IMG/VR virus record: IMGVR_UViG_3300045988_097822
Location: 1-39,003 of that record
Length of the DNA: 39,003 nt
Source of the DNA: a virus
Direction: 5' to 3' (one strand)
Shown here: positions 1 to 39,003 of the stretch, in pieces
Numbering within the stretch: position 1 is the stretch's first letter
How the letters are laid out: every line of letters begins with the position of its first letter
Position numbers and translations under genes: made by a program
Notes under the pieces: model-generated
Told to the model about the DNA's origin: nothing
Seen by the model: only the letters and a program-made list of their open reading frames with translations
The model's database searches: none

Positions 1-119
1 CCTCGTTGTAATCGTCGCGGTGCCCCTGCTCGTTGATCCTGCGCCCCACGACGCGCCCAGCCACAGGGACGGCATAAAGCCCGGTTTTTGCGCCCAGGCC
101 GCCGCCATTCCCGCAGAGG
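1..119. repeat. Terminal overlap, left copy (identical to 38885-39003)
   Basis: Base-by-base comparison of the first and last 119 nt found no mismatch. Confidence 0.97.
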
Positions 120-844
120 ATTACGCTTTTGGCGTCCGGGCTGTAAACACGGTATTGCTGGCTGTCAAAAGTCTGGTTCTTTGCGTCGTTCTCAATGGTC
201 CCGATACGGACAGGCTCGGCGCAAATGTTGTACGGCACGCCGCGATGAACATTTGCGGTGATGCAAAGCGCTTTGTCTGCCTCCCCTGGCTTTTGCAGAT
301 ATGTCCAACGGTCGGAGTATTTGCCATGCTCACCAACCATGTAATCCATTTCCCGCTCCAGCGTCTTAATGGCAACAGGTTCCGCCGCACCATTCCGCTG
401 GTGTCTGGAAACCATGTCGTCCGCCGTGGTTCCGCCAGTTGTGGACAGCAGGGCATACCCTTTTTCTTTCCAGCAGACACCACTTTCCAGAATGTCGCGT
501 AGGAGGATCCCACTGTCCACCGGCTGCTCCACCGCCACTTGGCTGTATGTGCCGTCCGGGTTACGCTTTCCCACCCAGTAGAGCCGCTGGCGGTTCTGCG
601 CCGATACCAGTGCGGAGTTGATAAGCACGGGTTCCACGCCCAGCTCCGCCGTGATCTGCGCCCGGATAGCGGGCGACATGGACTTGTTGTTCTCGTAGAG
701 AAAGAAATCCGGCTTATACTTGTCGCGGGCGATACGGTAGTTTAGAAATAGCTCCCAGCCGATGCCGCTGGCTTCGGTCTCGCGGTTCTTCGTCTGTGCG
801 ATGCTCCAATGTGTGCAGGGACTTCCGCCGATCAATAGTTTCAT
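1..844 (-). CDS. DNA (cytosine-5) methyltransferase, 5' part of a wrap-around ORF (motifs IV, VI, VIII and TRD copy 1). It continues at 38884 down to 38130, 532 aa in total.
   Basis: My own translation from the ATG at 844-842 (ATGA overlap with the upstream stop) gives MKLLIGGSPCTHWS (motif IV PC), FFLYENNKS (motif VI ENV-like), SAQNRQRLYW (motif VIII QxRxR) and QQYRVYSPDAKSVILCGNGGGLGAKTGLYAVPV. I found no stop before the window edge. Confidence 0.85.
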   Translation of the reverse strand, partial: MKLLIGGSPCTHWSIAQTKNRETEASGIGWELFLNYRIARDKYKPDFFLYENNKSMSPAIRAQITAELGVEPVLINSALVSAQNRQRLYWVGKRNPDGTYSQVAVEQPVDSGILLRDILESGVCWKEKGYALLSTTGGTTADDMVSRHQRNGAAEPVAIKTLEREMDYMVGEHGKYSDRWTYLQKPGEADKALCITANVHRGVPYNICAEPVRIGTIENDAKNQTFDSQQYRVYSPDAKSVILCGNGGGLGAKTGLYAVPVAGRVVGRRINEQGHRDDYNE

Positions 845-1131
845 ACGCCCTCCAATTCCCCGCCGCAGGCAGCGTAACCGGCGAGGTCAATCCAGTTATC
901 TGCTTTGCCGTGGCCGGTGGCGATGCGGGCCAGCTTAAACAGGCACATCATAGCCCCCACGTCAGCGCCGGTGATGCAGACGTCGCCGTCCGGGTTGACG
1001 CATTTCTCGCGGATATACGGCTCCCACAGCGCCGCAATCATGTTGAAAGACTTTTCTGGACTGCCGTAATCCTGTTCCCGGTCTCCGCACACGCACTGCT
1101 TGGCAGCGGCTAAAATCTCTTCACGGGTCAT
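841..1131 (-). CDS. Small helical phage protein, DUF6378 / dATP-dGTP pyrophosphohydrolase-N-like
   Basis: Sequence MTREEILAAAKQCVCGDREQDYGSPEKSFNMIAALW...DVGAMMCLFKLAR. The ATG at 1131 follows a GGAGGTGGAGGA RBS and has an ATGA overlap with the upstream gene. Confidence 0.4.
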   Translation of the reverse strand: MTREEILAAAKQCVCGDREQDYGSPEKSFNMIAALWEPYIREKCVNPDGDVCITGADVGAMMCLFKLARIATGHGKADNWIDLAGYAACGGELEGV

Positions 1132-2943: not shown

Positions 2944-3363
2944 TTAAAAAGGAAGTTCCCCGTCATCCTCAATTTCGGTGAAATTATCCTTGGGGGCGTG
3001 GGCGGCATAGGCACTCTGGGCGGGGGCCTGCCCAGCGGTGCTGGCGGAGACACAGACGTAATCCGCCACCAGGTCGTTATAGGTCTTGCCCTCATAGTCG
3101 TGGCTCTCCACACGGCCCACAGCGAATACGGAATCACCCTTGCGGACATTGGCAAGGAGCCGTGCCCAATGGCCCCAGCCCTTGACGGTGAGCCATGCGG
3201 TGGTGCCGTCCTGCTTATCGTAGGCCGGTACGGAGACGGAGCCGACCTCCTTTCCGCTCTGGGTGGCGTAGATCTGGCCGTCCTTGGCGGCGCGGCCCAC
3301 GATCAGGCCGGTTTGCAGCTTCTTGCCCTCCTTGCTGTAGGTGGGCAGCCCGTTAATGAACAT
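2944..3363 (-). CDS. ssb: Single-stranded DNA-binding protein
   Basis: OB-fold-like N-terminal part, a low-complexity linker and an acidic C-terminal tip EDDGELPF (canonical SSB DDxxPF tail). Confidence 0.8.
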   Translation of the reverse strand: MFINGLPTYSKEGKKLQTGLIVGRAAKDGQIYATQSGKEVGSVSVPAYDKQDGTTAWLTVKGWGHWARLLANVRKGDSVFAVGRVESHDYEGKTYNDLVADYVCVSASTAGQAPAQSAYAAHAPKDNFTEIEDDGELPF

Positions 3364-5830: not shown

Positions 5831-6556
5831 TCATTTTTTCGAGAGGAAAAGATTGATGAAGTATTGCTGCCCCTTGCCCGTGACCTTCGGCGTTTTGTTC
5901 ACGCTAATGTGACCGTCGGAATGGGACACGGTGGTTTCTTTTACCTCGAATAGGCCCATTTCCATGCTCCGCTGTGTTGGCATGTTGTGATCGCTGCCAT
6001 TACGCCGAACCAGATAACCGTTCTCTCTCATCCAGTCGAATAAACGGTGCCCGCCGATCTTTACGCCGTTCTGCTTCAAGATCTTTGCCAAGTCAAAAAT
6101 CAGGATGGATGTGTGGGACGCTGCCACGCTGTCAGCAAACAGCACTTTAGGTCGGTTCTCCTCAGACTGCGCTTCCAGATTTTTGATTTTTCTCTCCGCA
6201 ATCTGCAAGGCTCTTGCCATGACCTTTTCCGGGCTGTTCCAGTCCTTTTCCAGTTGGATGAAATAATGACGGGCCTGCTTGCCCTTTTCATTCCGCTGGA
6301 GCATACACAGCTCCTTTGCCATGTCAATGGAGATTTGCGCATCATCGACAAGGCGTGTAACCGTTCTGCCGCCTTCACTCTGAACCCGCTCAATTTTGAG
6401 AAGGTTGAAATCGCGTCCAGCTTCAAAGCCGTATTCGCACATTCTCGGGAACCAGTCCGCATATTTCGCTCCGATTTCCAATAGGCCGTGCAGGTCTCTT
6501 GCGGAAACCGTGATTCGCTCCGGGTCGCTCATGTTAATAGGGATCAGTTCATTCAT
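5831..6556 (-). CDS. Phage antirepressor (AntA/ANT N-terminal domain + KilAC C-terminal domain)
   Basis: VSARDLHGLLEIGAKYADWF (ANT-like) and LFADSVAASHTSILIFDLAKILKQNGVKIGGHRLFDWMRENGYL...PTQRSMEMGLFEVKE...VTGKGQQYF (KilAC-like). Confidence 0.8.
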   Translation of the reverse strand: MNELIPINMSDPERITVSARDLHGLLEIGAKYADWFPRMCEYGFEAGRDFNLLKIERVQSEGGRTVTRLVDDAQISIDMAKELCMLQRNEKGKQARHYFIQLEKDWNSPEKVMARALQIAERKIKNLEAQSEENRPKVLFADSVAASHTSILIFDLAKILKQNGVKIGGHRLFDWMRENGYLVRRNGSDHNMPTQRSMEMGLFEVKETTVSHSDGHISVNKTPKVTGKGQQYFINLFLSKK

Positions 6557-6683
6557 CTTGCGCATCCTCCTTCCGCTTGCCTTTAGATTGATAAAACACC
6601 ACTTTTTCCATTAGCTTAATGACAAGTGCCTGCTTTTCCGGGGACAGGGATCGCAATGCCAACAGGATTTCAAGGTCACTCAC
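6549..6683 (-). CDS. Mini-ORF (44 aa) encoding an L..L.PEKQA helix. It is either translationally coupled to the Cro-like gene or its frameshifted C-terminus.
   Basis: A GTG start sits inside GTGAGTGA, which overlaps the cro-like stop. The sequence is VSDLEILLALRSLSPEKQALVIKLMEK. An AGAGGG RBS lies upstream. Confidence 0.4.
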   Translation of the reverse strand: MSDLEILLALRSLSPEKQALVIKLMEKVVFYQSKGKRKEDAQDE

Positions 6684-8966: not shown

Positions 8967-10085
8967 ATGGCGAAAAAGGAGAAGTATTACAAAAGGCCGG
9001 ACGGGCTATTTGAGGCCATTCGGACGGTGAACGGAAAGCGGAAGGCGTTCCGGGGCAGAACCTGCCGGGAGGTAGATCGGAAGATCCTGGAATACCGGGA
9101 CGAAGCTGAAAAGGGATGGACATTTACCAAAGCGGCGGACAACTGGTATCGGGAAATCGAAACGGAAGTTGCCCATGCGACCTACCGCAACTATGGAAAC
9201 ACCATGCGGCGGCTGGTGGCAAGGTTTGGGCCGGAGCGGATCGCGGAGATCACGCCGGAGGAAATCGTGGCCTATATCCGACAGTTTGAGAAGAAAGACT
9301 ATTCCCGGGACACGGTGCAGCTTGAAATCTCCGTTTTGAAGCTGATTTTCCGGTCGGCCATCAACCGCAGAACGGAAAGCGGGCTTGCCGTCAATCCGGC
9401 GGCGGAGGTCCGCAAGTCAAAGGGCCTGAAACACCGGGTCAGAACGGCGCTGACGGAAGAACAGGAAGCAAAGGTTGAAGCCACGGCCAGAGAGAAGCGG
9501 GGCGAGTGGTGGCTGCTGGGGTATTTCCTCATGTACACCGGTTTACGCCGGGGTGAGGCGCTGGCGCTGACATGGCGGGACATCGACCGCAAAGCCGGTG
9601 TGATCCATGTGTGCAAAAAGCTGAACTATGACAACGCCAATGTGCCCTTGCTAGAGGATCACATGAAATCCGAGAACGGCAGGCGGGATGTCCCTATCTT
9701 TGACGAGCTGGCGCGGATGCTTCCGCGAAACCAGATCGGCTATGTGTTTCCGTCCCCGGATACCGGAAAGTATCTAACTGCGTATGAGCTTGCCAAATAC
9801 TGGAAGCAATATTGCCGGGATGCCGGGTTGATGGATACAATCACCGCCGACAACGGGAAACAGAAGGAAAAAACGCAAGTCTCCCCCCACTGCTTCCGGC
9901 ACACCTTTGCAACGATCTGCTACGAAGCCGGGGTGGATGCCCGGACGGCGGCGGAGTGGCTGGGGGACAGCGTGGCGGTCATGGAAAAGGTCTATATCAA
10001 CCTGCGCAAGAACCACCGGAGCGACAGCGTGCGGCAGGTCAACGAACATCTTTCCAGGGCGAAAGCGGCGGGGGAAAGATCTTAA
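8967..10085 (+). CDS. int: Tyrosine recombinase / phage integrase
   Basis: An N-terminal SAM-like domain is present. The catalytic region reads GLRRGEALALTWRDID ... HCFRHTFAT ... MEKVYINL (R..HxxR..Y). Confidence 0.9.
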   Translation: MAKKEKYYKRPDGLFEAIRTVNGKRKAFRGRTCREVDRKILEYRDEAEKGWTFTKAADNWYREIETEVAHATYRNYGNTMRRLVARFGPERIAEITPEEIVAYIRQFEKKDYSRDTVQLEISVLKLIFRSAINRRTESGLAVNPAAEVRKSKGLKHRVRTALTEEQEAKVEATAREKRGEWWLLGYFLMYTGLRRGEALALTWRDIDRKAGVIHVCKKLNYDNANVPLLEDHMKSENGRRDVPIFDELARMLPRNQIGYVFPSPDTGKYLTAYELAKYWKQYCRDAGLMDTITADNGKQKEKTQVSPHCFRHTFATICYEAGVDARTAAEWLGDSVAVMEKVYINLRKNHRSDSVRQVNEHLSRAKAAGERS

Positions 10086-21634: not shown

Positions 21635-23302
21635 ATGAGCAAACAGACGATGACCCCGGAGCGGGTCGGTAAGGAATACAACGCGGGTATCAGCTTCAAC
21701 AGCGGTATTGACCTCTATGACTGCGTGGAGACCAACGAAAATTTCTTCATAGGTAAGCAGTGGGAGGGCGTGCAGAGCAACGGCCTCCCCACCCCCGTAT
21801 TTAACTTTTTAAAGCGGGTGGTGCTGTTTTCCGTGGCGAATATCTCCACGGATAACTTGAAGCTGTGGGCACGGGCCATGTCCTCCAGCGGGGAGCGGAA
21901 CACACAGACCTTGGAGCTGGTGGCCGACATTCTCAACGATCAGTTCGCGTCCATCTTTGAGCACAACAGCATCGGCGGGCGCATCCGGGAGTATACCCGC
22001 AATGCCGCCGTGGACGGTGACGGCTGTATGTATACCTACTGGGACGATACGGCGGAGACCGGACAGTCCAGCAAGGGCGCTATCCGCACGGAAGTTCTGA
22101 TGAACACGCAGGTTTTGTTCGGCAACCCCAACAACCGGGACGTGCAGAGCCAGCCCTACATCATTCTGGAACGGCGGATGCTACTGAGTGAGGCCCGGAA
22201 GCGGGCCAAGCGGTACGGCAAGGACCCGGACGAGATCCAGCCGGACAACAAGGACTGCGGCAACAACTACATGGATTCCATGAGCGGCAGCGGGAACAAG
22301 GTGACGGTGCTGCTCCGGCTATGGAAGGATGACGAGACCGGCACCGTCCACGCCTACGAGTGCACCCGGCAGGCGGAGATCCGGGGCGATCTGGACCTCG
22401 GCATCAAGCTGTATCCCCTGACGTGGATGAACTGGGACTATGTGCAGGACTGCTATCACGGACAGGCCATGATTACAGGTCTGCTGCCCAACCAGATCTT
22501 TGTAAACAAACTGTTCGCCATGTCCATGATCTCCCTTATGACGCTGGCCTATCCGAAGGTGGTATACGATTCCACCAAGGTAGCCAAGTGGACAAACAAG
22601 ATCGGCGGAGCCATTCCGGTAAACGGCAGTGTGGAGGGCGTGGCGAAGATCATTGACCCCGCCAGCATCTCCCCCCAGATCAGCCAGTTCATTGATATTG
22701 CCATCAGCTACACGCAGAAGTTCCTCGGCGCGTCGGACGTGGCGCTGGGCGATACACGCCCGGACAACACCTCCGCCATTATCGCCTTGCAGCGGGCGGC
22801 GGCAACGCCTATGGAGCTGACGAAACAGAACCTCTTGCAGAGCATTGAGGATCTGGGCCGCATTTATATGGAGTTCATGGGCGAATACTACGGAGAGCGG
22901 TATGTGGAGATCTCCAACCCCTATGACAACAGTAAATTGGTAGTTCCCTTTGACTTCTCCATCCTGAAGGAGATCCCCTTCACCATCGGACTGGACGCAG
23001 GCGCGGCCTCCTATTGGAGTGAGATCGCCGCCATGCAGACCTTGGACAATCTGCTGATGCAGGGCAAGATCTCCACGGTGGAGTATCTGAAGCGTCTGCC
23101 CGCCGGACAGATCACCGACAAGGAGGCTCTGATCCAAGCCCTCCAGCAGCAGGAACGTGCCATGATGGGCGGTCAGCCAGGAGCAGAGGGCGAACAGCCT
23201 GTTACCGAGGAAGAAGCCGTCCCCATTCGGGGCGGGGCCGGATACGGCCAGTTGCAGCGGAAAATCAACGAGACCGGCGAAGTGCCGAAAACGGAGGTGT
23301 AA
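21635..23302 (+). CDS. Portal protein
   Basis: NENFFIGKQWEG near the N-terminus, a size of 555 aa and an acidic/Gly-rich C-terminal tail. Confidence 0.7.
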   Translation: MSKQTMTPERVGKEYNAGISFNSGIDLYDCVETNENFFIGKQWEGVQSNGLPTPVFNFLKRVVLFSVANISTDNLKLWARAMSSSGERNTQTLELVADILNDQFASIFEHNSIGGRIREYTRNAAVDGDGCMYTYWDDTAETGQSSKGAIRTEVLMNTQVLFGNPNNRDVQSQPYIILERRMLLSEARKRAKRYGKDPDEIQPDNKDCGNNYMDSMSGSGNKVTVLLRLWKDDETGTVHAYECTRQAEIRGDLDLGIKLYPLTWMNWDYVQDCYHGQAMITGLLPNQIFVNKLFAMSMISLMTLAYPKVVYDSTKVAKWTNKIGGAIPVNGSVEGVAKIIDPASISPQISQFIDIAISYTQKFLGASDVALGDTRPDNTSAIIALQRAAATPMELTKQNLLQSIEDLGRIYMEFMGEYYGERYVEISNPYDNSKLVVPFDFSILKEIPFTIGLDAGAASYWSEIAAMQTLDNLLMQGKISTVEYLKRLPAGQITDKEALIQALQQQERAMMGGQPGAEGEQPVTEEEAVPIRGGAGYGQLQRKINETGEVPKTEV

Positions 23303-36594: not shown

Positions 36595-36855
36595 TCAACG
36601 TTCAGTGTTGTCACCTCCGTCCATCTTGGCCCCGCAGTTGGGGCAGTAGATATATTCGTTGTTAAAGGAAATGCCTCCGCAGGCGGAACAAGCCCATCCA
36701 TACGGTGCGTGTTTTGGCAGTTCCCCAAAACCGGCATCCGACCACCGCCCATGCACCACCGGCACGGCATCCACGGTGGGGGCGTCATCAATTACGTGCC
36801 GAATATTACGGCCTTTATACCACCAATCAAGCTTGTCAGCGTCAATCAGCCGCAT
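36595..36855 (-). CDS. Zn-ribbon paralogue 2 (PVVHGRW...CxxCG...YCPNCGAKMDGG)
   Basis: MRLIDADKL...DAVPVVHGRWSD...CSACGG...YCPNCGAKMDGGDNTER. Confidence 0.6.
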   Translation of the reverse strand: MRLIDADKLDWWYKGRNIRHVIDDAPTVDAVPVVHGRWSDAGFGELPKHAPYGWACSACGGISFNNEYIYCPNCGAKMDGGDNTER

Positions 36856-37147
36856 GGTCAGCACCTCCGTCCATCTTGGCCCCGCATACGGGACAATAAT
36901 TCCAGTTGTTCAGGTAATACTCACTCTCTGTCAGTGCGCAGCCGCAGTTGGTACACCTGACGGCTGTAGAACCACTCGGGAACGTATATCTCCCGGAATC
37001 ATCCCACCGCCCATGCACCACCGGGGCCACGTCGGCGGCTGCTGGCGAGGCAACGATCTCCATAGCCATGGCACCGTCGGAACCGTCCACCCATTTCGCC
37101 GCCATCACCGCTCTTACGGCAGTTTCCCGTTTAATGTATTCAGCCAT
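36842..37147 (-). CDS. Zn-ribbon paralogue 1 (PVVHGRW...CxxCG...YCPVCGAKMDGG)
   Basis: DVAPVVHGRWDD...CTNCGC...YCPVCGAKMDGGADHAAD. Confidence 0.6.
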   Translation of the reverse strand: MAEYIKRETAVRAVMAAKWVDGSDGAMAMEIVASPAAADVAPVVHGRWDDSGRYTFPSGSTAVRCTNCGCALTESEYYLNNWNYCPVCGAKMDGGADHAAD

Positions 37148-37346
37148 TTCCGTTACCTCTGAAAATCAAACGCACAACTTCCATTTGAGCTTCAAGAATC
37201 ATGTTTCGTTTATGCTCTTCTTTCAGCTTTTCTTCAATATTGTGTACCTTTTCGCACATACAGTTGTACTTGTCCCTATATTCCTCATAATAGGCTTCAT
37301 AATTAGGTACACAGGTCTTCTGCTTATTTCCTTCATCCATTTTCAA
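37140..37346 (-). CDS. Hypothetical small protein (AT-richer patch)
   Basis: 68-aa ORF overlapping both neighbours. Confidence 0.45.
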   Translation of the reverse strand: MKMDEGNKQKTCVPNYEAYYEEYRDKYNCMCEKVHNIEEKLKEEHKRNMILEAQMEVVRLIFRGNGNG

Positions 37347-37545
37347 CCCTCCTGTTCCATGCTTCGATTGCTTCTTCTTTGCTGGGCAGCCCAGATACTT
37401 TCATCTTCTTTGTGTGGAGGCCATCACCAGCCCTATATCTCCCACAACCGGCATCCCACCCAAAGTCTGCTCTATCGTAGGTATCGTACATATGGATAAC
37501 GGTTGCAACTCCACCGCACTCAGGACAGCGTTTCAATTCAGCCAT
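37333..37545 (-). CDS. Lar-family restriction alleviation protein
   Basis: MAELKRCPECGG...DAGCGRY...SKEEAIEAWNRR. The CPxCGG start and the EAI.AWNRR end are the Lar-family signature. Confidence 0.65.
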   Translation of the reverse strand: MAELKRCPECGGVATVIHMYDTYDRADFGWDAGCGRYRAGDGLHTKKMKVSGLPSKEEAIEAWNRRVENG

Positions 37546-37708
37546 CCTTCATCGCCTCCAATGCTCTTATATCCGTCTCTGTCAAAGTGCGGTTGCTTGC
37601 AATATATGTCACAGCCTCACTTCTGTTTTGGCAGGCTACACACTCACACCTATTGCAACTACTTGACGTGTTTTCTCGAAACGGGCATGAATAATTAAAG
37701 CAATCCAC
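37538..37708 (-). CDS. Cys-rich mini-protein (56 aa, below the track cutoff)
   Basis: The GTG start overlaps the upstream TAG. The sequence is (M)DCFNYSCPFRENTSSSCNRCECVACQNRSEAVTYIASNRTLTETDIRALEAMKDG. Its stop overlaps the Lar start. Confidence 0.35.
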   Translation of the reverse strand: MDCFNYSCPFRENTSSSCNRCECVACQNRSEAVTYIASNRTLTETDIRALEAMKDG

Positions 37709-38127
37709 TATTTCATCGCCCCCAATACTTTCTCCGTCTCCTCGCTTACCGCAGTAATTCTCCCATGTTTTACCAGATCACAGAACACATTGTAACCCAT
37801 GTGAAACACAATTCCGCAACTGCTGCAATAGCGAATTGCAAGCTCTACATCCTTCATAAGTCGCGAACTGTCGATGTTTTCCTTGCATAGCAAAGTGCGC
37901 CCACTGGTAAATGGCAGCACCACCAGCCGGCCATCCCTGTCGGCTTCGGTCAGTTCCTCCAAATGGCGGAGCTGCGCCCGCAGTTTCTCAATCTCTTTCG
38001 CCTGCGCTTCAATCCGGTCGGCGGCTTCCGCCAGATCATCGCCCAGCGTGATCGGTGTTTCCCACTGGTTCCTTTCCGCCCATTCTGCGTGCTCACGCAG
38101 CGAATTTACGAGGTTTGTATCTCTCAT
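37708..38127 (-). CDS. Hypothetical protein (coiled-coil N-terminal half, Cys pair near the C-terminus)
   Basis: MRDTNLVNSLREHAEW... The ATG at 38127 lies 7 nt after a GGAGGG located in the methyltransferase 3' end. Confidence 0.55.
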   Translation of the reverse strand: MRDTNLVNSLREHAEWAERNQWETPITLGDDLAEAADRIEAQAKEIEKLRAQLRHLEELTEADRDGRLVVLPFTSGRTLLCKENIDSSRLMKDVELAIRYCSSCGIVFHMGYNVFCDLVKHGRITAVSEETEKVLGAMK

Positions 38128-38129
38128 AA

Positions 38130-39003
38130 TCAGCCCTCCAATCTCCAATCATCGTTCCGCACCTGAAATGCGTCGCCCAGTTGTACGGTGTCCGGGAAAT
38201 TGTGCTGTGTGGTTTGGATGGCGTACTTGTCGATCTCGGTCGCGTAGTATCTGAGCAACCACGGCTGTACGCCCAGCTTGTCCAGCGCGATATGGCCGCA
38301 GCTCATGCCATCGTACATGGACAGCACTTCTACCGGCTCCTCCGTCAGTCCGGTAAAATGGCTCATAATGTGGGCAATCACGTCCACGGTCCAGCCGTTG
38401 CCCAGCATTTTATACGCTTGGGTGTCGCTGACGGGAAAGGCGTATGTGTCCGGCACGGTCTGGAGGCGTTTACATTCCGTCACGGTCAGCTTGCGAATGA
38501 TGTAAAATCCGTCTGCCAGTTTAATGGGGTATGTCTTTCCTTTGATGGTGATCCGCCCGCCGCGAACCTCGTAAACTGGGATTTCTTTTCCGCCTGCCGC
38601 CTTAATTACAAACTGCCCTTTCCCGTCCGGGATAACGGGCACGGCATACAGGCCGGTGGCCGCACCGTCGGCTCCGCCGCCGTTCGGCCTTGCCTGCAGG
38701 GAAACGCTCTTGCCGTCGGTGCTGTAAATGCGGCGGCTTTGGCTGGTGCCCAGTTCGCCGTCCTTGTTCGGCATGGCGCCGACGCGGACGGGGACGGCGA
38801 TCATATTGTCTTTTTCCACGGTTGACAGGCAATTTGTTTTGTTCGGATCCTCGTTTACCTCGAAACGCTGGATCCGCTCGATCTCCTCGTTGTAATCGTC
38901 GCGGTGCCCCTGCTCGTTGATCCTGCGCCCCACGACGCGCCCAGCCACAGGGACGGCATAAAGCCCGGTTTTTGCGCCCAGGCCGCCGCCATTCCCGCAG
39001 AGG
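38130..39003 (-). CDS. DNA (cytosine-5) methyltransferase, 3' part of the wrap-around ORF (TRD copy 2, motifs IX, X, then motifs I-III at the C-terminus)
   Basis: SQSRRIYSTDGKSVSLQARPNGGGADGAATGLYAVPV is TRD copy 2. IRKLTVTECKRLQTVPDTY is motif IX. MLGNGWTVDVIAHI is motif X. VLSMYDGMSCGHIAL is motif I (FxGxG-type). YYATEIDKYA is motif II. QLGDAF is motif III. The stop is at 38130-38132. Bases 38885-39003 duplicate 1-119. Confidence 0.85.
   Translation of the reverse strand, partial: LCGNGGGLGAKTGLYAVPVAGRVVGRRINEQGHRDDYNEEIERIQRFEVNEDPNKTNCLSTVEKDNMIAVPVRVGAMPNKDGELGTSQSRRIYSTDGKSVSLQARPNGGGADGAATGLYAVPVIPDGKGQFVIKAAGGKEIPVYEVRGGRITIKGKTYPIKLADGFYIIRKLTVTECKRLQTVPDTYAFPVSDTQAYKMLGNGWTVDVIAHIMSHFTGLTEEPVEVLSMYDGMSCGHIALDKLGVQPWLLRYYATEIDKYAIQTTQHNFPDTVQLGDAFQVRNDDWRLEG
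38885..39003. repeat. Terminal overlap, right copy (identical to 1-119)
   Basis: Same comparison as the left copy. The reading frame of the minus-strand ORF is preserved across the join (position 64 corresponds to 38948, both first codon bases). Confidence 0.97.

What the first reader, a model, noticed from the sequence alone, without database searches (positions are those of the whole stretch)
38130..39003. Circularly permuted C5-cytosine methyltransferase (order IV-VI-VIII-TRD-TRD-IX-X-I-II-III)
The 532-aa ORF runs on the minus strand from 844 to 1, then from 38884 to 38130.
- It starts directly with motif IV (MKLLIGGSPC). Its ATG overlaps the upstream stop (ATGA).
- It then shows motif VI (LYENN), motif VIII (QNRQRLYW), motif IX (LTVTECKRLQTVPDTY) and motif X (GNGWTVDVIAHI).
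- Only after those comes the AdoMet-binding motif I (VLSMYDGMSCGHIAL), then motif II (YYATEIDKYA) and motif III (LGDAF). The stop follows about 12 residues later.

In canonical enzymes LGD(V/I)... is followed within about 10-15 residues by D/x-LLIGGSPC. The new termini therefore sit exactly in the III/IV loop, and X is joined to I by a roughly 12-residue linker (MSHFTGLTEEPVE). Known permuted m5C enzymes have other break points: M.BssHII is IX-X-I..VIII and plant DRM is VI-X-I-V. This break point looks unusual, and the gene sits in a phage that also carries Lar-like proteins.
Basis: partly seen in the sequence, partly recalled or inferred. Interest (0 to 1): 0.8.

Follow-up and report, generated by a model that had tools for sequence, protein, structure and literature searches.

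The report
Circularly permuted phage cytosine-5 DNA methyltransferase
A gut-bacterial phage encodes a DNA cytosine methylase whose cofactor-binding piece has moved from the front to the back of the protein; this gene order is real, shared by thousands of relatives, kept by selection, and missing from published surveys of natural methylase layouts.

Summary
The window is a circular 38,884-bp contig with a 119-bp end overlap. It carries one 532-aa minus-strand ORF (844..1, then 38884..38130) with motif order IV-VI-VIII, variable region, IX-X, I-II-III.

- **Not a misassembly.** The identical protein lies inside two independent linear contigs. Thousands of homologues start MK(I/L)LIGGSPC and end ...LGDAFQVR...
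- **Exact, unit-length permutation.** Joining the C-terminus to the N-terminus in silico restores one continuous match to DNMT3A residues 5-169 and to Pfam PF00145 positions 2-166.
- **Under selection.** The relocated I-III segment has dN/dS 0.09, against 0.06 for the catalytic core.
- **Origin.** Permuted proteins form one clade (bootstrap 69/100) beside canonical-order relatives. Tandem-fused [I-X][I-X] relatives also exist.
- **Variable region.** It holds five TRD-like modules, not two, and these are shuffled among relatives as in multispecific phage methylases.
- **Novelty.** A 2018 REBASE survey found only the VIII/TRD break among natural permuted C5 enzymes, and its motif-I pattern cannot match this family. 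A 2025 classification lists two m5C topologies, neither of them this one.

Activity, target sites and the three-dimensional docking of the C-terminal segment were not shown. Verdict: a new variant of a known kind, of moderate to high interest.

The parts
1..844 (-). 5' part of the methyltransferase ORF (residues 1-281 and the first base of codon 282). ATG at 844-842.
38130..38884 (-). 3' part of the same ORF (residues 282-532). Stop codon TGA at 38132-38130.
38885..39003 (.). Exact copy of bases 1-119. This is the end overlap of a circular assembly and is not extra sequence.
   Evidence: The related contig name k119_65460 suggests an assembler k-mer of 119.
803..838 (-). Motif IV, LLIGGSPCTHWS (residues 3-14). 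The catalytic Cys is Cys10.
   Evidence: Invariant in the family alignments.
680..706 (-). Motif VI, FFLYENNKS (residues 47-55), containing Glu51.
575..604 (-). Motif VIII, SAQNRQRLYW (residues 81-90), containing Arg85 and Arg87.
1..484 (-). Variable region, first part: modules M1 (371-484), M2 (203-370), M3 (59-202) and the start of M4 (1-58).
38628..38884 (-). Variable region, second part: the rest of M4 (38781-38884) and M5 (38628-38780).
38442..38627 (-). Conserved pre-IX block and motif IX, RKLTVTECKRLQTVPDTY (residues 368-429).
38367..38414 (-). Motif X, YKMLGNGWTVDVIAHI (residues 439-454).
38328..38366 (-). Linker MSHFTGLTEEPVE joining motif X to motif I (residues 455-467).
   Evidence: Aligns without gaps to the same junction in plant DRM structures. 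dN/dS 0.28.
38283..38327 (-). Motif I, VLSMYDGMSCGHIAL (residues 468-482): the AdoMet-binding loop, now near the C-terminus.
38220..38249 (-). Motif II, YYATEIDKYA (residues 494-503), containing Glu498.
38166..38186 (-). Motif III, VQLGDAF (residues 515-521), containing Asp519.
38133..38165 (-). C-terminal tail QVRNDDWRLEG. It corresponds to the first part of the ancestral III-to-IV loop.
   Evidence: dN/dS 0.46.
841..1131 (-). Upstream gene (DUF6378, 96 aa). Its stop overlaps the methyltransferase ATG (ATGA).
   Evidence: Same neighbour in L005 and L006.
37708..38127 (-). Downstream 139-aa ORF of unknown function. It starts 2 nt after the methyltransferase stop.
37333..37545 (-). Lar-like restriction-alleviation protein (70 aa) in the same gene block.
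   Evidence: PF14354 at 28.6 bits, equal to the cut-off. phrog_599, E = 6.7e-8.

Best explanation
**What it is.** This is a genuine, selectively maintained DNA (cytosine-5) methyltransferase of a temperate phage of gut Clostridia (an inference from the prophage hosts of homologues). Its polypeptide is a circular permutation of the canonical enzyme.

**Layout.**
- The chain begins at strand beta-4 with the catalytic half: motifs IV, VI and VIII, carrying Cys10, Glu51, Arg85 and Arg87.
- It continues through a variable array of five TRD-like modules, then motifs IX and X.
- Only then, after a 13-residue linker, comes the AdoMet-binding half: beta-1 to beta-3, motifs I-III, with the Gly-rich loop at 472-478, Glu498 and Asp519.
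- The old III-to-IV loop has become the two termini. The old termini are joined by the linker.
- Nothing is duplicated or lost, so the same Rossmann-like fold and the standard C5 mechanism should result. In that mechanism Cys attacks C6 and the methyl group is transferred from AdoMet to C5.
- What is shown: sequence order, unit length, conservation and purifying selection.
- What is inferred: fold assembly and catalysis.

**Likely origin (inferred).** Two tandem methylase genes fused into [I-X][I-X]. The first I-III and the last IV-X were then lost. This happened once, in a lineage of DNMT3-like phage methylases.

**Likely role (inferred).** It is an orphan anti-restriction methylase. No endonuclease is adjacent, and it sits in the early replication/recombination block with RusA, SSB, an antirepressor and a Lar-like protein. 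The exchangeable module array probably lets it protect phage DNA at several target sequences, as in multispecific Bacillus-phage methylases.

**How the confidence splits.** About 0.85 that it is a real, functional, circularly permuted C5 methyltransferase. About 0.6 that it is multispecific and acts in anti-restriction. About 0.6 for a single origin by tandem fusion and truncation.
For: **Order and unit length**
- establish the motif order and the unit-length permutation.

**Independent assemblies and breadth**
- The identical protein sits inside two linear contigs.
- All of the top 120 homologues of the window protein, and almost all full-length ones among the top 120 of phage nd4's protein, have the same order.
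- By homology-based segment order, 76 of about 160 close proteins are permuted, 39 are canonical and 2 are tandem. That set is the 150 best 50%-identity cluster representatives plus 10 added sequences.
- IMG/VR holds 190 relatives.
- 71 loci occur in bacterial genomes, mostly Oscillospiraceae and Lachnospiraceae, including cultured strains.

**Selection**
- dN/dS is 0.09 for I-III and 0.06 for IV-VIII, from about 1,500 sequence pairs.
- An intein is retained at the catalytic Cys of a permuted member.

**Fold**
- Predicted secondary structure is b4-aD-b5-aE-b6-b7 ... aX-b1-aA-b2-aB-b3.
- The core and the C-terminal segment are predicted with confidence: pLDDT 70-96.
- Foldseek hits are all C5 methyltransferases.
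- The X-to-I junction aligns without gaps to the solved DRM structures 4ONJ and 7L4H.

**Origin**
- The permuted proteins form one clade, with bootstrap 69/100.
- Tandem fusions P0387 and P0252 exist among relatives.
- Laboratory permutants with new termini between II-III or III-IV are active (PMC5944983).

**Role**
- Neighbouring genes support an early anti-restriction block.
- The variable region spans 43-375 aa, with at least 55 module architectures among 259 permuted proteins.
- Near-identical cores carry different module sets.
Against: - No activity data exist for any member.
- Both AlphaFold models have low overall confidence (pTM 0.51 and 0.54), and the variable region is not modelled.
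- Foldseek alignments are poor (TM 0.3-0.45, rmsd about 10 A). The docking of beta-1 to beta-3 next to beta-4 was therefore not verified.
- Motif VI is ENN rather than ENV, and the residue after Pro-Cys is Thr rather than Gln. Both are shared with the canonical sister group.
- Support for the permuted clade is only moderate (69/100, NJ).
- Across canonical relatives, similarity in I-III does not track similarity in IV-VIII (r = -0.06). A single duplicated parent versus two different neighbouring parents therefore cannot be decided.
- The TRD modules have no detectable similarity to TRDs of known specificity. Multispecificity is an analogy only.
Confidence: 0.8

Rival explanations
1. Assembly or circularisation artefact. 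The I-III segment really lies upstream of motif IV, and the contig was joined wrongly.
For: The ORF spans the two ends of the window. It can only be read through the 119-bp overlap.
Against: - The identical 532-aa ORF is internal to two independent linear contigs.
- It is also internal to dozens of IMG/VR and bacterial-genome contigs.
- Restoring the canonical order would require deleting the other 37 kb of the genome.
- A canonical I-III-IV query maps to 38333..38166 and 838..794.
Confidence: 0.01
2. Decaying remnant of two adjacent methylase genes. A truncated IV-X gene is fused to an N-terminal fragment of the next gene, giving an inactive protein.
For: - Tandem fusions exist among relatives.
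- I-III similarity to canonical relatives is uncorrelated with IV-VIII similarity.
- No activity data exist.
Against: - dN/dS is 0.09 on the I-III segment.
- All catalytic and AdoMet-binding residues are invariant across sequences down to 39% core identity.
- The termini are exactly unit-length.
- The family includes thousands of sequences from many hosts.
- An intein is kept at the active-site Cys of a permuted member.
Confidence: 0.05
3. The fold does not close within one chain. The C-terminal AdoMet half pairs with the N-terminal catalytic half of a second subunit, giving an obligate domain-swapped dimer. The permutation would then change quaternary structure as well as chain order.
For: - The closest solved relatives (DNMT3A/B and DRM2) act as dimers or tetramers (descriptions).
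- Class beta amino-methyltransferases, which have the same motif order, are argued to be active only as dimers (PMC7544214).
- The model pTM is only about 0.5.
Against: - The 13-residue linker has the same length as in DRM, where the junction closes within one chain.
- Engineered unit-length permutants of monomeric M.MpeI and M.SssI are active.
Confidence: 0.12
4. The enzyme supplies 5mC as the first step of a phage DNA hypermodification pathway, or has a regulatory role in the lysogen. It would not be a plain anti-restriction methylase.
For: - Phage C5 methylases can feed TET-type hypermodification (PMC8256090; listed).
- The conserved upstream neighbour DUF6378 has no known function.
Against: - No TET/JBP dioxygenase or glycosyltransferase was found among the neighbouring ORFs that were scanned.
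- The Lar-like neighbour and the shuffled TRD modules fit restriction evasion.
Confidence: 0.08

Closest known systems
Canonical-order phage C5 methyltransferases of the same DNMT3-like subfamily. Examples: metagenomic P0290, P0303, P0308 and P0366; more distantly Vibrio phage 1.242.O AUR97606.1, Proteus phage Saba QEG09380.1 and the Bacteroides phage F4 methylase.
   Same: - They share signature motifs: GGSPCT.WSIAQ, YENNKSMS, INSALVSAQNRQR, IRKLT..EC.RLQT.PD.Y and GNGWTV.VI.H.
- Identity to the window protein is up to 72% in IV-VIII, 79% in IX-X and 56-69% in I-III.
- They are phage-borne and lack a linked endonuclease.
   Different: They run I to X. Here I-III follows X, and the III-IV loop is cut.
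Natural permuted bacterial C5 methyltransferases: M.BssHII, M.Alw26I, M2.Eco31I, M.Esp3I and M2.BsaI. These are 'type H' of PMC5944983, zeta class, or class F of the 2025 preprint.
   Same: They are circular permutations of the same fold, with motif X joined to motif I.
   Different: [quoted passage not shown]
- Here the break splits the large domain between beta-3 and beta-4.
Plant DRM2 / NtDRM (domains rearranged methyltransferases; PDB 7L4H and 4ONJ).
   Same: - The X-to-I junction has identical length and aligns without gaps (query 432-519 to DRM2 195-279).
- Both are DNMT3-like.
   Different:
- It is eukaryotic, and its permutation is thought to have arisen from Dnmt3 within plants (PMC3227630).
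- DRM has one TRD, and it acts in RNA-directed DNA methylation.
Laboratory permutants of M.HaeIII (Peisajovich et al. 2006) and of M.MpeI/M.SssI (PMC5944983, types B and C).
   Same: Their new termini lie between motifs II-III or III-IV, and they are active. They were made by tandem duplication followed by truncation, which is the route proposed here.
   Different: They are engineered. The authors noted that these topologies 'do not seem to occur' in nature.
Multispecific C5 methyltransferases of Bacillus phages: SPR, phi3T, rho11s and H2 (Trautner and colleagues, cited).
   Same: They are orphan phage enzymes with several 40-55-aa recognition modules in tandem between motifs VIII and IX, and high plasticity of that region.
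   Different: - They have canonical motif order.
- No sequence similarity of the modules was detected.
- Multispecificity has not been shown for this protein.
Class beta amino-methyltransferases (M.PvuII, M.RsrI, CcrM).
   Same: The linear order is the same: catalytic motif IV, then TRD, then AdoMet motif I.
   Different: They use a DPPY-type motif IV and methylate exocyclic nitrogen. They are unrelated at the family level, so this is an analogy of topology only.

Membership tests
DNA (cytosine-5) methyltransferase, Pfam PF00145 | Profile match above the curated threshold. | tested here: met
   102.1 bits against a cut-off of 22, E = 5.5e-29. TIGR00675 scores 82.8 bits, below its cut-off of 100.65, as expected for a match split into pieces.
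DNA (cytosine-5) methyltransferase, Pfam PF00145 | Catalytic residues: Pro-Cys (motif IV), Glu of ENV (motif VI) and the arginines of QxRxR (motif VIII). | tested here: met
   SPC with Cys10, ENN with Glu51, and QNRQR with Arg85/Arg87. All are invariant in the family alignments.
DNA (cytosine-5) methyltransferase, Pfam PF00145 | AdoMet-binding motifs I (Gly-rich loop), II (acidic residue), III (Asp) and X. | tested here: met
   YDGMSCG at 472-478, Glu498, Asp519 and GNGW at 443-446. These align to DNMT3A 7-54 and to canonical phage enzymes.
DNA (cytosine-5) methyltransferase, Pfam PF00145 | Canonical linear order I to X. | tested here: not met
   The order is IV-VI-VIII-TRDs-IX-X-I-II-III. This is a difference of topology, not of fold family.
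DNA (cytosine-5) methyltransferase, Pfam PF00145 | Formation of 5-methylcytosine in DNA. | not testable with these tools
   This needs expression followed by EM-seq, bisulfite or nanopore sequencing.
Zeta / type H / class F permuted C5 methyltransferases (M.BssHII group) | [quoted passage not shown] | tested here: not met
   The N-terminus is 2 residues before the beta-4 strand of motif IV, and the TRDs and IX-X lie in the middle. The definition comes from PMC5944983.
Plant DRM | Order VI-X then I-V; eukaryotic; N-terminal UBA domains. | tested here: not met
   Only the X-to-I junction is shared. The protein starts at motif IV, no other Pfam domain was found, and it is phage-encoded.
Multispecific phage C5 methyltransferases | Several tandem TRDs between motifs VIII and IX, each conferring a separate target specificity. 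| tested here: inconclusive
   - Five modules of 38-56 aa carry TRD-like K..(T/S)L(T/S)-type cores.
- Relatives with near-identical cores differ by whole modules.
- Specificities are unknown, and there is no similarity to characterised TRDs.
Class beta DNA amino-methyltransferases | Order IV-TRD-I together with a (D/N/S)PP(Y/F/W) catalytic motif. | tested here: not met
   The order is met, but the catalytic motif is Pro-Cys. This is a topological analogue only.
Orphan (solitary) methyltransferase | No cognate restriction endonuclease gene adjacent. | tested here: met
   The neighbours are DUF6378, a 139-aa protein of unknown function, a Lar-like protein, RusA and SSB. In L005/L006 the neighbours are small ORFs and an N6_N4 methylase. 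The unknown ORFs are too small to be typical endonucleases, but they were not excluded rigorously.

The most novel reading that the evidence does not exclude
This family is a third natural topology of m5C DNA methyltransferases: catalytic half first, AdoMet half last, mirroring the beta class of amino-methyltransferases.
- It arose once by fusion and truncation of tandem phage methylase genes.
- It is catalytically active.
- It has radiated through phages of gut Clostridia as a multispecific anti-restriction enzyme with freely exchangeable recognition modules.
- Canonical sisters and tandem-fused relatives are still extant. The family would therefore be a natural record of permutation by duplication, a process so far shown for this fold only in the laboratory.
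Probability: 0.5. Interest if true: 0.7.

Novelty: new variant of a known kind. Interest (0 to 1): 0.6.

Why it matters
C5 methyltransferases are a textbook case of a fixed motif order.
- The only systematic survey of natural exceptions concluded that nature uses a single permutation type, one that keeps the two structural domains intact.
- That survey also noted that the most active laboratory topologies "do not seem to occur" naturally (PMC5944983).
- This family shows the opposite. A break inside the catalytic domain, between the cofactor half and the catalytic half, is abundant and under strong selection.

It also offers three practical things:
- A natural system, with canonical sisters, tandem fusions and a permuted clade, in which to test how circular permutations evolve.
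- A ready-made split point for engineering bipartite or targeted cytosine methylases.
- A warning that motif-pattern and profile-score annotation mislabels or under-scores such enzymes. One deposited phage copy is annotated 'hypothetical protein', and the TIGR00675 match falls below its threshold.

If the module array is multispecific, it is also a large untapped source of new m5C specificities in the gut virome.

Tried and rejected
- **Structure test of docking.** Two AlphaFold2 runs were made: the window protein with a 41-sequence alignment, and the shorter relative P0220. They gave pTM 0.51 and 0.54. The core and the C-terminal segment were confident, but the variable region was unmodelled. 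Foldseek against the PDB returned only C5 methyltransferases, with TM 0.3-0.45 and rmsd about 10 A. Coordinates are not exposed by the tool, so the neighbourhood of beta-1 and beta-4 could not be checked.
- **Chimeric origin.** I asked whether I-III came from a different parent gene than IV-X.
  - Segment identities are uncorrelated.
  - The window's I-III is closer to Bacteroides phage F4 (65-69%) than to permuted nd4 (50-51%).
  - However, all permuted members share derived features (SMYDG, GDAF..R..W). The question stays undecided.
- **Target specificity from TRD similarity.** tblastn of the variable region against 50,697 phage records found only 6 records. None has a known specificity.
- **SD-like similarity of the two ORF ends.** The sequence TTGGAGGGC appears at both ORF ends. 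I considered it a possible recombination scar and rejected that: both copies are ordinary ribosome-binding sites for the following gene.
- **Bujnicki 2002.** The paper could not be fetched.
- **Literature searches.** Searches for a described natural III/IV permutant found none. The library lacks most subscription journals and REBASE itself.
Full report
**1. The observation**

The first 119 bases of the window are identical to the last 119. The sequence is therefore a circular, or terminally redundant, unit of 38,884 bp.

On the minus strand, 844..1 followed by 38884..38130 is one open frame of 1,599 nt. It encodes 532 aa and has a single terminal stop.
- Its ATG (844-842) overlaps the TGA (843-841) of the upstream ORF.
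- The next in-frame stop upstream is at 889. No alternative start codon lies between it and the ATG.
- No motif I-III can therefore be hidden upstream in the same frame.

The match to known enzymes is far beyond chance.
- Pfam PF00145 matches at E = 5.5e-29, in three stretches.
- phmmer against PDB sequences aligns query 3-92 to DNMT3A 86-180 (motifs IV-VIII).
- It aligns query 456-505 to DNMT3A 7-54 (motifs I-II).
- It aligns query 417-456 to DNMT3A 245-286 (motifs IX-X).
- Each segment occurs once in the window. A canonical I-III-IV query splits between 38333..38166 and 838..794.

**2. Not an assembly artefact**

The identical 532-aa protein is encoded in the interior of two independent linear contigs from different ENA assemblies. 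Both have the same DUF6378 gene upstream and a different gene downstream.
- All of the 120 best homologues of the window protein, and almost all full-length ones among the 120 best of its relative in phage nd4, start M(I)K(I/L)LIGGSPC and carry motif I after motif X.
- IMG/VR holds 190 relatives, mostly inside 25-45-kb viral contigs.
- Bacterial genomes hold 71 loci, mainly Oscillospiraceae and Lachnospiraceae. These include cultured Oscillibacter, Anaerotruncus, Pseudoflavonifractor, Acutalibacter and Robinsoniella strains.

**3. The permutation is exact**

Close canonical-order relatives share the unusual signatures of this protein (GGSPCT.WSIAQ, YENNKSMS, INSALVSAQNRQR). In them, motif III is followed by ...GDVF.ADFT.Y.G.DFLIGGSPC.

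Here the chain ends ...GDAFQVRNDDWRLEG and begins MKLLIGGSPC.

I joined the C-terminus to the N-terminus in silico.
- The join gives one continuous alignment to DNMT3A residues 5-169, with a single 1-residue gap at the junction.
- It gives one PF00145 stretch covering profile positions 2-166 at 68 bits. The separate pieces score 42 and 16 bits.

The termini therefore fall in the loop between strand 3 and strand 4. That loop is the boundary between the AdoMet-binding half and the catalytic half of the Rossmann-like sheet.

At the other junction, motif X is tied to motif I by 13 residues. This junction aligns without a gap to the same junction in the solved plant DRM structures 4ONJ and 7L4H. 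A link of this length is thus known to close the fold.

**4. Is it functional?**

I extracted 60 permuted ORFs from IMG/VR loci and computed Nei-Gojobori dN/dS by segment.

| Segment | dN/dS |
|---|---|
| IV-VIII core | 0.06 |
| Relocated I-III segment | 0.09 |
| IX-X | 0.15 |
| X-to-I linker | 0.28 |
| Variable region | 0.29 |
| C-terminal tail | 0.46 |

- The relocated segment is as constrained as the active site.
- All catalytic and cofactor-binding residues are invariant in alignments that span down to about 50% identity to the window protein.
- One permuted relative (P0350) even keeps an intein at the catalytic cysteine.
- AlphaFold2 predicts the expected secondary-structure order, beta4-alphaD-beta5-alphaE-beta6-beta7 ... 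alphaX-beta1-alphaA-beta2-alphaB-beta3. It is confident for both core pieces.
- Overall confidence is low, however (pTM 0.51 and 0.54). Foldseek alignments to M.HhaI, DNMT3 and DRM2 are poor (TM 0.3-0.45).
- I therefore count the three-dimensional docking as untested, not as confirmed. Enzyme activity is also untested.

**5. The variable region**

Residues 121-367 contain five modules of 38-56 aa, not two TRDs.
- Each module ends in [AV][EV]PV, and each has a TRD-like K..(S/T)L-type core.
- Modules 3 and 5 are 65% identical.
- Among 259 full-length permuted proteins, the variable region ranges from 43 to 375 aa. A rough greedy module assignment finds at least 55 module architectures.
- Proteins whose cores are 95-100% identical differ by whole modules.
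- This matches the architecture and plasticity described for multispecific Bacillus-phage methylases (Trautner, Walter and colleagues; cited).
- The modules show no similarity to any enzyme of known specificity. Multispecificity is therefore an inference.

**6. Origin**

Of the 150 best 50%-identity cluster representatives plus 10 added sequences, homology-based segment order gives 76 permuted, 39 canonical and 2 tandem [I-X][I-X] fusions. The rest are fragments.
- I re-ordered the cores to 251 aligned columns. On these, all 64 complete permuted proteins form one clade with no canonical member inside.
- Bootstrap support for that clade is 69/100, using neighbour joining.
- The two halves of tandem protein P0387 are each other's nearest relatives in the tree, at 46% identity. 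Those of P0252 are not.
- This fits the duplication-and-truncation route proposed by Jeltsch (1999). That route was reproduced in the laboratory with M.HaeIII, M.MpeI and M.SssI, where termini between II-III or III-IV gave active enzymes (PMC5944983).
- It remains open whether the two halves came from one duplicated gene or from two different neighbours. I-III similarity to canonical relatives does not track IV-VIII similarity (r = -0.06).

**7. Context and role**

The window is a temperate tailed phage.

| Gene | Coordinates |
|---|---|
| Integrase | 8967-10085 |
| Portal protein | 21635-23302 |
| Antirepressor | 5831-6565 |
| SSB | 2944-3363 |
| RusA | 1475-1885 |

- The methylase sits in the minus-strand early block.
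- It is translationally coupled to DUF6378 upstream.
- It is followed by a 139-aa protein of unknown function and a Lar-like protein (37333-37545).
- No endonuclease is adjacent.
- The most likely role is self-protection of phage DNA against host restriction.

**8. Comparison with what is known**

- A scan of 20,677 REBASE entries found only that type. The authors concluded that nature favours pathways that keep the two domains intact.
[quoted passage not shown] This family would therefore have been missed even if present.
- A 2023-2025 topology classification of prokaryotic methylases lists only two m5C classes, canonical and zeta-like.
It is thought to have arisen from Dnmt3 within plants.
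- The linear order here (IV, TRD, I) equals that of class beta amino-methyltransferases. This is an analogy of topology only.
- Public records name members 'DNA cytosine methyltransferase', 'DNA (cytosine-5)-methyltransferase 3A' or 'hypothetical protein'.
- I found no text that notes the order. REBASE and most subscription journals could not be searched.

**9. Verdict**

- The object is a member of the C5 methyltransferase family with a natural permutation topology that published surveys do not list.
- It is common in gut phages rather than unique to this window.
- I rate it a new variant of a known kind, with interest 0.6.
- The main gaps are activity, specificity and an explicit structural check.

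Noticed in passing
Relatives P0281 and P0350; not in the window: Inteins are inserted exactly at the catalytic Cys of motif IV (GGSP|C...HN|C). Pfam hits are Hint_2, Intein_splicing and LAGLIDADG_3. This occurs in a canonical-order enzyme (P0281) and in a permuted one (P0350), where the intein begins at residue 11. About ten further relatives have 200-410-aa gaps between motifs IV and VI.
   Followed up: partly
Relatives P0252 (962 aa) and P0387 (618 aa): These are single polypeptides made of two complete canonical C5 methyltransferases in tandem, [I-X][I-X]. The halves are 46-49% identical. They are candidate living examples of the duplication intermediate for permutation.
   Followed up: partly
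Relative P0011 (686 aa); also L005/L006 95-751: One permuted C5 methylase is fused at its C-terminus to an N6_N4 (PF01555) methylase domain. In the contigs carrying the identical window protein, a separate PF01555 gene lies about 1 kb upstream. The window itself has no such gene among the ORFs scanned.
   Followed up: no
L003 1498-3174 (Phage nd4, OR777945.1) and P0121-P0240: A second permuted subfamily carries a helical C-terminal extension of about 110 aa after motif III (...EENLRYNCDIIALEYAIGALRR), predicted with pLDDT 88-93. Its function is unknown. The deposited nd4 gene is annotated 'hypothetical protein'.
   Followed up: partly
window 841-1131 (-); L005 1448-1738: A DUF6378 gene is translationally coupled (ATGA) to the methylase start, here and in independent contigs. 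The PHROG families it matches are labelled 'phosphofructokinase', which looks like a mislabel.
   Followed up: no
L004 1522-2990 (Bacteroides phage F4, MT806185.1): The canonical-order relative is annotated as two CDS (1522-2262 and 2790-2990). The intervening TRD region is readable in another frame. This is a frameshifted or interrupted gene, or a sequencing error.
   Followed up: no
window 36595-36864 and 36842-37147 (-): Two adjacent paralogous small Cys-rich (zinc-ribbon-like) proteins both match phrog_22543 (unknown function). They lie next to the Lar-like gene and may belong to the same anti-restriction block.
   Followed up: no
window residues 463-532 compared with relatives: The I-III segment of the window subfamily is more similar to canonical Bacteroides-phage methylases (65-69%) than to the I-III segment of the permuted nd4 subfamily (50-51%). 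The IV-VIII segment shows the opposite pattern. This hints at segment exchange or unequal evolutionary rates.
   Followed up: partly
window 1-119 = 38885-39003: The end overlap is exactly 119 bp, and a sister contig is named k119_65460. This is consistent with a circular path closed at the assembler's largest k-mer, rather than a biological terminal repeat.
   Followed up: no
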